This document shows, in pieces, positions 22,068 to 25,725 of a stretch of 64,000 nucleotides of DNA (positions are counted from its first letter, which is position 1; each line of letters begins with the position of its first letter). The notes beneath the pieces are model-generated. The model saw nothing but the letters and a program-made list of their open reading frames with translations. It was not told where the DNA came from and ran no database searches. Location of the stretch: positions 316,448,001 to 316,512,000 of the forward strand of contig OZ024742.1 of NCBI GenBank assembly GCA_964016885.1. The letters are read 5' to 3'. Position numbers and translations under genes: made by a program. Source of the stretch: Eledone cirrhosa (Eukaryota).

Positions 22068-22221
22068 TCTCTCTCTCTCTCTCTCTCTCTCTCTCTCTCT
22101 CTCTCTCTCTCTCTCTCTCTCTCTCTCTCTCTCTCTCTCTCTCTCTCCTCTCTCTCTCTCTCTCTCTCTCTCTCTCTCTCTCTATATATATATATATATA
22201 TATATATATATATATATATAT
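22068..22221. repeat. Compound (CT)n(TA)n microsatellite
   Basis: Visible directly. Confidence 0.95.
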
Positions 22222-23003
22222 GAGAGACGTAAAATAAGAAAATTATAAAATTAACTTACTTACTAAAATATCACTTCCTACTAAATGGAATAAATATATT
22301 TTCCGAAGAAAACATAGAGAATCATTTCGTCGTCAGGGAAGACTATTCTCATCTAAGTATCCAGGCAAAGCGTGGACTCTGGAAACTTATTCAAAAATAA
22401 TTCAGTGGATAGAAAATAGCAAAGCGTGGACTGAATTCCTAGTCATTGAGAAAATCACTGCCTCTGCGTCGGTGCCAAATTCAAAAAGAATCAATCACGT
22501 GATATCGAGGTCAATCAGTGGAAAGTGGTTTGCTAATAAGACAGCGGCCTGCCTGCTACCATAGCAGCAGTGTGGCCAATATTGCTCGACAAATAATTTG
22601 GAGATAATTATAAAGAATTAATATCTAGTAACATATATATACATACAGATGAATATCAATGCTAGCAAATATATAGGTTTTGTCTTAGTAACTTTTTGGT
22701 TCAATGCATGGGGTTGCAGAACAATAATATGAGAGACGTAAAATAAGAAAATTATAAAATTAACTTACTTACTAAAATATCACTTCCAACTAATTAGTTT
22801 CTGAAATGGAATAAATATATTATCCGAAGAAGACATAGAGAATCATTTCGTCGTCAGGGAAGACTATTCTCATCTAAGTATCCAGGCAAAGCGTGGACTC
22901 TGGAAACTTATTCAAAAATAATTCAGTGGATAGAAAATAGCAAAGCGTGGACTGAATTCCTAGCCATTGAGAAAATCACTGCCTCTGCGTCGGTGGCAAA
23001 TTC
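22219..23003 (-). mobile_element. 1.5 tandem copies of a ~510-bp HHR-bearing monomer
   Basis: atgagagacgtaaaataagaaaatt at ~22220 and ~22728; (TA)n on both sides. Confidence 0.8.
22783..22862 (-). ncRNA. Hammerhead ribozyme
   Basis: Minus strand: CTTCC CTGACGA cGAAATG...CATTTCa GAAAC taatta GTT GGAAG; the first tandem copy lacks GAAAC and stem III. Confidence 0.8.
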
Positions 23004-23044
23004 ATATATATATATATATATATATATATATATATATATATATG

Positions 23045-23282
23045 TTTATTAAAATAACAGATTAAAGTTTAAGCAAAGAATCGCTGCTTTCACCCTTAAC
23101 GGGATCATCTGAAACTCAGAGTTTCAGAAGATCCGGTAAAGGGTGAAAGCAGCGATTCTTTGCTTAAACTTTAATCTGTTATTTTAATAAATATTTGCTC
23201 TAGGGTTCTTATATATTTGATATATATTTATCCTTATCGAGCCCTCTTTGGATTTTAGTCTTCACATTTATTATTATTACTA
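23045..23282. mobile_element. Fold-back palindrome of the 11578-12890 family with two back-to-back HHRs (23066-23116 -, 23120-23170 +)
   Basis: 73-bp arms centred on 23118; cores CAGATGA and CAGAAGA. Confidence 0.8.
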
Positions 23283-23514
23283 TATATATACATATATATA
23301 TAGTAATAATAATAATAATAATTATATATATATATATATATATATAATAATATTATTTACAGTTATATATACACTATATACAACAGCAAGGGTCAGTAAT
23401 TTATTACTACCTTATTACCAGTAATAAGAATACCTCAATGTACATACATCAGATGTTATACAGATCAGGAATATAAATTACACAATAATCAAAGCTATGT
23501 TCAAATCATTTTAT

Positions 23515-23561
23515 TATTGACAATCGTTTCTTCCAAACATTTGTTTGGAATCCTCGGAGCA
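23515..23561 (-). ncRNA. Minimal hammerhead ribozyme, CCGAGGA variant (stem I damaged)
   Basis: Minus strand: tgct CCGAGGA TTCCAAAC aaat GTTTGGAA GAAAC gatt GTC aata. Confidence 0.65.
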
Positions 23562-23826
23562 CTAGCAAAGTTTGGATATATATTAAACTCCTATTCAACT
23601 GAACAGTCATATAGATACATGGATATTAATGTTGTCATCAACAGTTTCGTATTTACAGAGTGGAATGGATGTGTCCTGTATATGCCTCTATACTGCTTTA
23701 ATTATTATGGTATTCTCTTGTAATCTCTGTATAAATACGAAACTGTTGATGACAATATTAATATCCATGTATCTATATGATTGTTCAGTTGAATAAGAGG
23801 TTAATTATGTGTCCAAACTTTGGTAG

Positions 23827-23873
23827 TGCTCCGAGGAATCCAAACTAAAGTTTGGAAGAAACGATTGTCAGCA
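23827..23873 (+). ncRNA. Minimal hammerhead ribozyme, CCGAGGA (U4C) variant
   Basis: TGCT CCGAGGA atCCAAACT aa AGTTTGGaa GAAAC gatt GTC AGCA, then AATAAA. Confidence 0.8.
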
Positions 23874-24036
23874 ATAAAAATGATTTGAACATAGTTTTGA
23901 TTATTGTGTAATTTATATATATATATATATATATATATATATATATATATATATATATAGTTATTCCGGGTTCAATCGGAGGTAACCGCAATAAGTAGGT
24001 TACTCAATACATAGCAGAGAATAAATGTTTAATATA

Positions 24037-24080
24037 CTGATGATTTCTCACGAATGAAACAGTTCTAGTGCTGTAGAAGC
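24037..24080 (+). ncRNA. Hammerhead motif of the 8091 family, 5' strand of stem I missing
   Basis: CTGATGA tttctcacgaat GAAACAG ttctagtg CTGTA gaagc. Confidence 0.55.
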
Positions 24081-24118
24081 TTTTCTATATATATATATAT
24101 ATATATATATATATATAT

Positions 24119-24290
24119 ATCATCATCATCATCATCATCATTTCATTTTACGTCCGCTTTTTCCCTGCTTGCAAGGGTGGGACGGGAACTGATTCTGGCT
24201 TGATTTCTACAGCTGGATGCCCTTCCTAACACCAACCTCATTTACAGTGAGTGGTGGGTGCTTTTTTGCCGTGGCACCTGCACGACCACT
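24119..24290 (-). mobile_element. SINE/RTE-type 3' tail ending in (ATG)n
   Basis: (CAT)n followed by tttacgtccgc..ttctacagctggatgcccttcctaacaccaacc; related motif on + at ~45505-45535. Confidence 0.55.
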
Positions 24291-24337
24291 TTACAGTGGA
24301 ATGATATGGACCCCAGTCCCTATCATCTCATTTCTAC

Positions 24338-24463
24338 AGCTGAGTAAACTGGAGCAATGTGAAATAAAGTGTCTTGCTCAAGGAAACAACACATCACTCG
24401 GTCTGAGAATTGAACTCACAACCTTTCGATTGCAAGGCCAATGCTCTAACCACTAAGCCATGT
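24338..24463 (-). mobile_element. tRNA-derived SINE family B, 5' part
   Basis: Minus strand: catggcttagtggttagagc..gagttcaattctc..ccttgagcaagacactttatttcac; same family as 51757. Confidence 0.8.
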
Positions 24464-24469
24464 CCCTCC

Positions 24470-24639
24470 ATATATATATATATATATATATATATATATA
24501 TATATATATATATATATATATATATATATATATATATATATATATATATATATATATATATATATATATATATATATATATATATATATATATATATATA
24601 TATATATATATATATATATATATATATATATATATATAT
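24470..24639. repeat. (TA)n microsatellite, ~170 bp
   Basis: Visible directly. Confidence 0.97.
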
Positions 24640-24893
24640 TCTTTAGCTTTGTTGGTTCACCACTGGATAGAACTGGTCATTCCGTATGGTCAATCCTGGT
24701 GTAATATTGTGAAGAGTAGTCAACGCAGTGCAGTTCACCCATCTTCGTTTGTGTAGTTGGTGGTGCGAATACGGAGTTAATTATAAATGAAATAACAGGA
24801 GGCTGGACTGGTGTGTAATATTGTGAAGAGTACTCAACGCAGTCTCTGATTTTCGGACCCATGGCTTTTTACATATTCCTCTGTTATATTCCA

Positions 24894-24951
24894 ATATCTG
24901 ATGATATCACCGGATTCATATGGAACCCGGTCATTGAAATGATCATAGTAT
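24894..24951 (+). ncRNA. Minimal hammerhead ribozyme in TA-flanked element 24640-25002
   Basis: atat CTGATGA tatcACCGG..CCGGTcatt GAAA TGATCA TA gtat AATAAA; the element also has inverted repeat 24781-24813/24970-25003. Confidence 0.75.
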
Positions 24952-25064
24952 AATAAACCTTTCAAGGATTTACACCAGTCCAGCCTCCTGTTATTTCATT
25001 TATATATATATATATATATATATATATATATATATATATATATATATATATATATATATATATA

Positions 25065-25725
25065 TATGAAAGACGTAAAATAAGAAAGTTTTTAAAATTA
25101 AAAATTAACTTACTTACTAAAATTTTTCACTCCAACTAATTAGTTTCTGTAATGGGATAAAGATAGTTACGCATCAGGGAGTCTATTCTCAGCTAAGTCC
25201 CCAGGCAATGCGCGGACACTAGGGACTCATATAAAAATAATAATTCGGTGGATGGAACAGCTAGCGGGGACTGAATTCCATAGCATTGAAAAAGTTCACT
25301 GTCTCTGGTCAAGTGGCAGATTCTAAAGAATCAATCACGTGACACTGAGGCTAGTCAGTAGGAGTGGGATGGTATTATGAGAAGAGCCTACTACCACTAC
25401 TATGAATTAGCAGTGGATTTAGCAAGTTTGCTCAACAAATAAATAATTTGGAGATAAATATAGAGAATTAATATATTTACCAACATATGCGTACAGATGT
25501 AAACTAATGCTAGCAAATACATAAGTTATGTCATAGTACCTAGGTGGTTCTATGCAGGGGGATGCAGAACAATTATATTTTAAAATTTTCTTATTTTACG
25601 TCTTTCATATAATTGTTCTGCATCCCCTGCATAGAACCACCTAGGTACTATGACATAACTTATGTATTTGCTAGCATTAGTGTATATCTGTACGCATATG
25701 TTGGTAAATATACTAATTCTCTCTC
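25065..25725 (-). mobile_element. Diverged relative of the ~510-bp monomer plus an inverted junction-spanning piece
   Basis: Colinear similarity with 22219-22727; 25580-25722 is an inverted copy covering the end-to-start junction. Confidence 0.8.
25129..25182 (-). ncRNA. Hammerhead ribozyme (A9 missing)
   Basis: Minus strand: ACTCC CTGATG cGTAA..TTACa GAAAC taatta GTT GGAGT. Confidence 0.7.

What the first reader, a model, noticed from the sequence alone, without database searches (positions are those of the whole stretch)
22219..25725. ~510-nt HHR monomer family with evidence of a circular or multimeric template
Seen: 1.5 tandem units at 22219-23003. In the diverged relative at 25065 the inverted piece reads (rc) gcagaacaattatatgaaagacgtaaaataag, the same end-to-start junction as in the tandem. 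HHR stems covary (CTTCC/GGAAG versus ACTCC/GGAGT; GAAATG/CATTTC versus GTAA/TTAC). Both insertions break at an internal TA-rich junction, and there is no ORF. Inference: a non-autonomous retrozyme copied from circular or multimeric RNA and primed by pairing with the (TA)n target.
Basis: partly seen in the sequence, partly recalled or inferred. Interest (0 to 1): 0.75.

Follow-up and report, generated by a model that had tools for sequence, protein, structure and literature searches.

The report
Hammerhead retrozyme with two Penelope starts
This is one of thousands of copies of a 520-540-base non-coding repeat with a predicted self-cutting (hammerhead) RNA motif; its insertions sit in TA microsatellites and begin at two fixed points, the footprint of Penelope-type jumping genes, whose enzyme likely copies it from a predicted small RNA circle.

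Summary
Observation largely confirmed. The unit is 521-538 nt genome-wide; both window insertions carry deletions, and only 1 of their 3 hammerheads is intact. It has no ORF, at least 2,661 insertion ends in (TA)n and 4,021 head-to-tail junctions. Hammerhead stem II has five fully paired variants. Arms start at only two points, 120 nt apart. All 86 classifiable two-armed insertions pair one start of each kind. A coding Penelope-like element (PLE) in this genome shows the same footprint. Better evidence for a unit-length template: no ORF between units, 61 of 224 arms exceed one unit, and one arm holds about 11 near-identical units. Pairing with (TA)n does not choose the start sites. Not shown: RNA, cleavage, circles, the partner PLE. 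Verdict: new member of animal non-LTR retrozymes, likely PLE-mobilised, a link already proposed in print. This scan noted the same footprint before in other families of this genome.

The parts
22183..22221 (.). (TA)n target at the primed end of insertion 1, preceded by (TC)n 22068-22183
22220..22728 (-). Full unit, subfamily A (509 nt here, 522 in the family); RNA strand is minus; position 22220 is start site 1; hammerhead at about 22274-22341 destroyed by a 12-nt deletion
22609..22728 (-). 120-nt segment between start site 2 (unit position 403) and start site 1 of the next unit; appears as the 'tail' on one arm of two-armed insertions; folds into conserved hairpins
22729..23003 (-). Second, 5'-truncated unit (unit positions 1-275)
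22783..22862 (-). Only intact type I hammerhead motif of the finding: stem I CUUCC/GGAAG, core CUGACGA, extra C, stem II GAAAUG/CAUUUC, extra A, GAAA, palindromic stem III, GUU site; predicted cut between 22788 and 22787
   Evidence: activity not tested
23004..23043 (.). (AT)n at the truncated end of insertion 1
25001..25067 (.). (TA)n target at the site-1 end of insertion 2
25066..25578 (-). Site-1 arm of insertion 2: one unit of subfamily B; hammerhead at about 25129-25182 damaged by a 28-nt deletion (A9 and 5' strand of stem II lost)
25577..25720 (+). Inverted arm of insertion 2: 33 nt of unit start plus the tail, ending at start site 2 next to (TC)n(TA)n

Best explanation
This is an ORF-less 521-538-nt repeat with a conserved hammerhead motif whose insertions begin at two fixed points in (TA)n, and it is likely a non-LTR retrozyme that a Penelope-like RT/GIY-YIG protein copies in trans from a predicted unit-length RNA circle. 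SHOWN: thousands of dispersed insertions; no ORF; stems that covary across 9 subfamilies; two fixed starts 120 nt apart; one start of each kind in every classifiable two-armed insertion; arms that run through the junction for up to about 11 units. INFERRED: (1) a multi-unit copy is transcribed; (2) two hammerheads pair through the palindromic stem III and release a monomer, which is ligated to a circle; (3) a PLE protein, likely a dimer, binds the folded domain around the tail and nicks both strands of a (TA)n tract; (4) one nick is extended from site 1 and the other from site 2, the sites being set by protein and RNA fold, with 4-5 nt of TA pairing at most fixing the register; (5) reverse transcriptase runs round the template and drops off at variable points; (6) the two cDNA ends are joined head to head, often at short palindromes, or only one arm is kept.
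For: 2,661 exact (TA)n|site-1 ends, 372 (TA)n|site-2 ends for young subfamily A alone, 4,021 internal junctions; reversed-pattern controls 0. Site-1-selected sample: 49 of 79 have an inverted partner ending at the tail site, 0 at site 1, 1 unclassified, 29 single. Tail-selected sample: 37 of 59 have a partner ending at site 1, 0 at the tail, 2 unclassified, 20 single. A coding PLE of this genome (RT + GIY-YIG, Neptune/Nematis-type CX4CxxC linker, hammerhead in its 3' UTR) has the same two-arm, one-tail form in (TA)n at locus L075. Two internal RT starts flanking the tail were shown in vitro for a PLE (PMC11167929). 61 of 224 arms exceed one unit and 10 exceed two. L267 has exact site-1 and site-2 ends, 10 whole units plus a 461-nt piece in one arm, 0-3 private changes per segment and 3 shared minor sites; L270 and L273 are star-like with 0 shared minor sites. 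Private variants are shared by all overlapping units of both arms at 11 sites in the 20 long-array stretches, and at further sites in L106, L118, L144, L180, L182, L218. Stem II has 5 fully paired variants in 203 of 238 parsed motifs (278 extracted). Whole-unit fold: 95.7% of cells paired, 14 of 98 pairs with change on both sides, 0 of 500 shuffles reach the score. One covarying helix joins the tail to sequence about 90 nt beyond site 2, so the RNA likely continues past both starts. Symmetric arm joins: 82 genome-wide at an 8-nt palindrome just short of the predicted cut site, at most 9 at the 10-nt stem III palindrome just beyond it.
Against: No RNA, cleavage or circle was observed. No coding PLE with sequence similarity to the unit was found among 50 GIY-YIG stretches, of 10,597 candidates. 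The motif is non-canonical (extra A before G12, GUU site), is not the minimum-energy fold of the isolated 96-nt stretch and has no Rfam match. In the Poseidon PLE tested in vitro, hammerhead cleavage was dispensable, unprocessed RNA was the main substrate, and start sites did not differ between strands. In Xenopus only 1 of 9 predicted retrozyme dimers cleaved. Variants shared by only some units are more frequent than those shared by all (27 against 14; 47 against 15). L268, L269, L275 and L196 look like DNA-level duplication, and the arms of L019, L274 and L283 differ at some sites. Distances within an insertion are not lower than to the nearest other insertions. Drop-off per 260 nt rises with length instead of staying constant. 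Outside symmetric joins there is no excess of ends at the cut site (13 observed, 11.9 expected), and RT pausing at stem I explains the 82-against-9 contrast equally well. The covariation statistic uses a structure derived from the same 9 related sequences.
Confidence: 0.6

Rival explanations
1. Same non-autonomous, PLE-mobilised element, but the template is an uncleaved linear multimer transcribed from tandem genomic copies. Length is regenerated by DNA-level duplication or by RT template jumps, and the hammerhead is slow or regulatory.
For: PMC11167929: unprocessed tandem RNA is the dominant substrate in vitro. Arrays of 7-11 units exist (L267, L269) and some show duplication patterns. Subset-shared variants are common. 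Most arms read straight through the predicted cut site. Drop-off is not memoryless.
Against: No fixed transcript 5' end among 224 arm ends. A helix spanning site 2 implies that a linear source would lose about one unit per generation, yet only 10 of 224 arms exceed two units while the family persisted through 9 subfamilies up to 25% apart (inference). Star-like arrays with exact PLE ends. Hammerhead core and stems are maintained.
Confidence: 0.3
2. The unit is the pseudo-LTR or 3' end of a coding PLE, and the copies are 5'-truncated relics of it.
For: All end features are those of PLEs, and most PLE hammerheads occur as truncated singles (PMC4209133).
Against: 27 of 79 site-1 arms pass from unit end to unit start with nothing between; 4,021 such junctions. 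No PLE ORF continues from an arm in 80 loci; the one 3-kb gap (L128) holds an unrelated LINE-like piece. No protein remnant in the unit (best tblastn E 1.3).
Confidence: 0.05
3. A DNA-level satellite or palindrome-forming repeat spread by recombination or rolling-circle DNA transposition, with an incidental ribozyme motif.
For: Some long arrays show DNA-level duplication.
Against: Polarity (fixed 3' starts, variable 5' ends), the (TA)n target, an identical footprint in a coding PLE and compensatory changes in RNA helices across the unit.
Confidence: 0.05

Closest known systems
Metazoan non-LTR retrozymes (Cervera and de la Pena 2020, PMC7229834: passages and sections 14 and 17 read; Li, Clavereau and Pollet 2026, bioRxiv 10.64898/2026.07.22.740005: parts 1-3 of 5 read, through the Discussion; its supplements could not be seen)
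   Same: Dispersed and tandem ORF-less units of a few hundred bases, one type I hammerhead per unit, low GC (35-37%), co-occurrence with PLEs; both papers propose PLEs as the mobiliser.
   Different: Unit is longer than the 150-450 bp of the 2020 paper but within the 51-972 bp of the 2026 preprint. The hammerhead is of the PLE type. In the parts read, neither paper describes fixed twin start sites, tails or inverted arms for retrozymes. The 2026 preprint links retrozymes to PLEs by pLTR homology, which was not found here. Cleavage and circles are shown for coral, mussel and axolotl, not here.
Endonuclease-bearing Penelope-like elements, Neptune/Nematis type (Craig et al. 2021, PMC8557442: passages read; Frangieh et al. 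2024, PMC11167929: parts 1-2 of 4 read)
   Same: Partial tandems, an inverted 5'-truncated copy, a tail at one end only, microsatellite target, hammerhead shortly upstream of two internal RT start sites.
   Different: No RT-GIY-YIG ORF; tail about 120 nt against the usual 30-40 nt (about 50 nt in the coding family at L064/L075); strict one-of-each pairing of starts, whereas the in vitro PLE showed no strand difference.
PLE-type hammerheads with small palindromic helix III (Cervera and de la Pena 2014, PMC4209133: parts 1-2 of 4 read)
   Same: Type I, nucleotide between 9 and 10.1, G10.1-C11.1, long helix II, 5-bp helix I, palindromic helix III predicted to need a dimer.
   Different: Extra A between C11.1 and G12 (an extra base there also occurs in other hammerhead families of this genome), GUU cleavage triplet, second stem inside loop II.
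Non-autonomous Chlamys PLEs such as MRC1 (PMC8557442, passage read)
   Same: [quoted passage not shown]
   Different: Those generally share 3' sequence with an autonomous family and mostly lack hammerheads; no partner homology was found here.

Membership tests
Metazoan non-LTR retrozyme | Head-to-tail units of a few hundred bases with one type I hammerhead each | tested here: met
   521-538-nt units, 4,021 junctions, one motif per unit
Metazoan non-LTR retrozyme | No coding capacity | tested here: met
   Longest ATG frame 27-86 aa in 9 representatives, no PLE protein remnant
Metazoan non-LTR retrozyme | Low GC, dispersed multi-copy family | tested here: met
   GC 0.35-0.37; 2,661 site-1 ends
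Metazoan non-LTR retrozyme | Target-site duplication when present | tested here: inconclusive
   Both flanks are usually (TA)n, so a duplication cannot be read
Metazoan non-LTR retrozyme | Self-cleavage of the hammerhead | not testable with these tools
   Only covariation and an indirect join asymmetry
Metazoan non-LTR retrozyme | Unit-length circular RNA in vivo | not testable with these tools
   No RNA data available to lay
Metazoan non-LTR retrozyme | Absence of PBS and PPT motifs | not tested
   No search for them was run
Autonomous Penelope-like element | Single ORF with RT and GIY-YIG endonuclease | tested here: not met
Penelope-type insertion footprint | Inverted 5'-truncated second copy | tested here: met
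   50 of 79 and 39 of 59 insertions have an inverted piece
Penelope-type insertion footprint | Tail at one end only, set by two internal RT starts | tested here: met
   86 of 86 classifiable two-armed insertions; 3 others unclassified; tail 120 nt, longer than the usual 30-40
Penelope-type insertion footprint | Microsatellite target | tested here: met
   (TA)n at most primed ends in the homology-selected loci and at the unselected partner ends
Non-autonomous derivative of a specific PLE | Sequence homology to the pLTR of a coding PLE | tested here: inconclusive
   None in 50 GIY-YIG stretches by blastn and nhmmer, apart from two separate neighbouring insertions; 10,597 candidates exist
PLE-type type I hammerhead | CUGANGA and GAAA core, base between 9 and 10.1, G10.1-C11.1, long helix II, short helix I, palindromic helix III | tested here: met
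   Core 234 of 238, extra C 229 of 238, stem III 220 of 238 parsed motifs (parsing required part of the core, 40 of 278 not parsed)
Canonical hammerhead | C11.1 directly followed by G12; match to an Rfam hammerhead model | tested here: not met
   Extra A in 234 of 238; no Rfam match in the window

The most novel reading that the evidence does not exclude
A Penelope-type RT-endonuclease dimer grips one 520-540-nt ribozyme-made RNA circle at a folded domain, primes the two ends of a (TA)n break at two different fixed sites in a strictly coupled way, and rolls round the circle up to eleven times. The genome keeps a fossil of in vivo cleavage: twin arms fold back just short of the cut site about ten times more often than just beyond it. 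The unit would then be a ready-made minimal substrate that explains how PLE tails, inverted arms and partial tandems arise.
Probability: 0.35. Interest if true: 0.7.

Novelty: new member of a known kind. Interest (0 to 1): 0.45.

Why it matters
Who mobilises animal retrozymes, and whether PLE tandems come from circular RNA, have been proposals since 2014-2020. This family gives countable genomic support for PLE mobilisation without relying on sequence homology, and a 520-nt substrate with mapped start sites, a mapped cut site and a predicted binding domain. That makes the circle model and the coupling of the two priming events directly testable in the existing in vitro PLE assay. The class and the link are known, and this scan has noted the footprint in other families, so the gain is a test system, not a new kind of element.

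Tried and rejected
Rfam at gathering scores: no match. Public runs: no RNA holder listed. A trace in a second organism (2 contigs, partial) is too small to count as evidence. Autonomous partner: 50 GIY-YIG stretches searched by blastn, tblastn and nhmmer; L048 and L068 hold separate insertions of the family, not linked ends; weak nhmmer hits near site 2 in another tandem hammerhead family (E 0.7-2) were not counted. L128, with 3 kb between arms, holds a LINE-like piece, not a PLE ORF. A pile-up of truncation ends just short of the cut site (27 observed, 13.4 expected) vanished when the 18 symmetric two-arm joins were removed (13 against 11.9), so only the join contrast is kept, as a weak hint. 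A transcription-start spike near unit position 140 was not found (8 against 6.7). Within- against between-insertion distance gave no separation from nearest neighbours. The internal 9-nt TA run as a start site was rejected. The pattern missed subfamily B and was replaced. The pair count used a structure string shifted by one column after column 300 and was discarded. Pol III transcription was judged unlikely by eye from T4-T5 runs on the RNA strand (alignment; not tested). Rows dropped before counts: L176 (not parsed), L245 (duplicate of L244), four tail-pattern hits already in the site-1 sample. Look-ups of earlier findings by sequence and near place returned nothing. Paper searches for a twin-start description in retrozymes found none; the library lacks most subscription papers and Repbase, so absence from print is not shown.
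Full report
Observation. The window holds 1.5 head-to-tail units at 22220-23003 between (TA)n runs, and a diverged relative at 25066-25578 followed by an inverted piece that reads across the same end-to-start junction. A type I hammerhead motif lies on the minus strand. Only the copy at 22783-22862 is intact. The first unit has lost 12 nt including GAAA and stem III, which is why it measures 509; the relative has lost 28 nt including A9 and the 5' strand of stem II. Rfam gives no match at curated scores.

The family. The host genome (G000, 3.0 Gb) holds 2,661 exact junctions of (TA)n with unit position 1 and 4,021 exact end-to-start junctions, with reversed controls at 0. 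132 full units fall into 9 groups up to 25% apart, with representatives of 521-535 nt and common lengths up to 538. The longest ATG frame is 27-86 aa, and no PLE protein remnant is found. Of 278 extracted motifs, 238 were parsed (parsing required part of the core). Stem II occurs in five fully paired variants (72, 54, 38, 30, 9), N7 is C or U, stem III is a 10-nt palindrome, and the site is GUU in 224. These traits match the PLE-type hammerheads of PMC4209133, except for an extra A before G12; an extra base there also occurs in other hammerheads of this genome, including one in a coding PLE. The isolated motif does not fold into the active form by energy alone, as expected for a dimer-dependent ribozyme. 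Structure is conserved beyond the ribozyme: on 9 representatives 95.7% of cells pair, 14 of 98 pairs change on both sides, and 0 of 500 shuffles reach the score. The structure came from the same alignment and the sequences are related, so this is support, not proof. One covarying helix joins the tail to sequence about 90 nt past the second start site.

Insertion anatomy. I took the first 80 site-1 junctions listed (of 2,661) and 60 tail junctions from the top of that list (of 372; four already sampled were skipped). In the first set 79 parsed: 49 have an inverted partner arm ending at unit position 385-425, none ends at site 1, 1 is unclassified and 29 are single. In the second set 59 remained: 37 partners end at site 1, none at the tail site, 2 are unclassified and 20 are single. 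So all 86 classifiable two-armed insertions combine one start of each kind. The other ends are variably truncated. This is the PLE footprint: inverted truncated copy, tail at one end only, microsatellite target (PMC8557442), with the tail lying between two internal RT starts (PMC11167929). The genome is rich in PLEs (10,597 GIY-YIG candidates). One coding family with RT, GIY-YIG and a CX4CxxC linker has a hammerhead in its 3' UTR, and at L075 forms a 3.3-kb two-armed palindrome in (TA)n with a tail of about 50 nt on one arm only. It shares no detectable sequence with the unit, so it is a control for the footprint, not the partner.

Is it just a pLTR? No. 27 of 79 site-1 arms pass from unit end to unit start with nothing between, and no PLE ORF continues from an arm in 80 loci.

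Circle or multimer. For a unit-length template: 61 of 224 arms exceed one unit and 10 exceed two; no fixed 5' end appears. L267 has exact ends of both kinds, 10 whole units plus 461 nt in one arm, 0-3 private changes per segment, and one private variant in 11 of 12 segments across both arms; L270 and L273 are star-like. Private variants shared by all overlapping units of both arms occur in about a dozen loci. If the helix across site 2 is needed, a linear source would lose about one unit per generation, so some step must restore length (inference). Against: variants shared by only some units outnumber those shared by all (27 to 14; 47 to 15); several long arrays show DNA-level duplication; the arms of L019, L274 and L283 differ at some sites; within-insertion distances equal nearest-neighbour distances; drop-off is not constant with length; and a PLE tested in vitro did not need its hammerhead. 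A weak sign of cleavage: symmetric joins of the two arms are enriched (18 of 86 against 7.9 by permutation, P 0.0006), and genome-wide 82 lie at an 8-nt palindrome just short of the predicted cut site against at most 9 at the 10-nt stem III palindrome just beyond it (4 of 6 inspected were true joins). RT pausing at stem I would give the same picture, and other arms show no excess there (13 against 11.9). I put the circle at about 0.6 and the linear multimer at 0.3.

Priming. Both starts carry a TATA/ATAT of 4-5 nt, kept in 9 of 9 representatives at site 1 and 8 of 9 at site 2. But the unit has 10 such TA-type stretches and the longest (9 nt) is not used: 49 pattern hits against 12 control, 0 of 10 inspected in the family. 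Protein and RNA fold likely choose the sites; pairing may set the register.

Comparison. It works like a PLE insertion substrate and meets the testable sequence criteria of a metazoan non-LTR retrozyme; cleavage and circles could not be tested. It is not an autonomous PLE. PLE mobilisation of retrozymes was proposed in PMC7229834 and PMC7761336 (passages), and argued from pLTR homology in bioRxiv 10.64898/2026.07.22.740005 (supplements not visible, and they may list related families). A circular template for PLE tandems was proposed in PMC4209133. I found no paper describing strictly paired twin starts in retrozymes, within a limited library. Earlier notes of this scan report the same twin-arm, one-tail footprint for families of 310-591 nt in this genome; I reached that reading before the look-up, tested it only on this family, and count the notes as leads, not support.

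Verdict. A real, abundant family; a new member of a known kind. What it adds is an unusually long tail, a strict one-of-each rule counted from both ends, a folded domain across the second start, and an 11-unit arm. Interest 0.45.

Noticed in passing
window 23046-23194; also 11735 (-), 12823 (+): A short two-armed palindrome of another family with a hammerhead-like motif whose core reads CAGAAGA and which has a UU site; common beside PLE loci elsewhere in the genome.
   Followed up: partly
window 186 (+): A further type I hammerhead motif of an unrelated family (CUGAUGA, TATATA stem III); related motifs at L066, L071, L077, L080.
   Followed up: no
window about 23500-23900, 24690-25000 and 25743-25850: More inverted-repeat insertions in (TA)n next to the finding, seen by eye; probably two-armed ends of other PLE-type families.
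   Followed up: no
L064, L075, L070, L065, L060, L076: Coding PLE family (CX4CxxC linker) with a compact hammerhead about 390 nt after the stop codon, a UU site, (TA)n target and a tail of about 50 nt; L075 is a near-perfect 3.3-kb palindrome with ORF pieces on both arms.
   Followed up: partly
L061:4309-7122 and L063:1775-5062: Long open PLE reading frames (938 and 1,096 codons between stops), candidates for recently active autonomous elements.
   Followed up: partly
L071:8068-9553 and L062:6700-7159: Other tandem hammerhead arrays with periods of about 490-510 and 459 nt; the L071 family shows weak, non-significant similarity to the region before start site 2 of this unit.
   Followed up: partly
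L267 (G000:C5:11373382-11379663), L268, L269 (G000:C1604): Longest arrays found: about 11 units with exact ends; the two on a small contig show two-unit or multi-unit duplication patterns.
   Followed up: yes
unit positions about 280-315 and 180-190 (window about 22490-22520 and 22390-22400): Conserved CACGTG and CCAAT-like boxes and a TATA-like stretch upstream of the hammerhead on the RNA strand resemble elements in the 3' UTR of the coding PLE family; possible Pol II promoter, by eye only.
   Followed up: no
window 27238-34674: GC-richer stretch with several long open frames (up to 528 codons), not examined.
   Followed up: no
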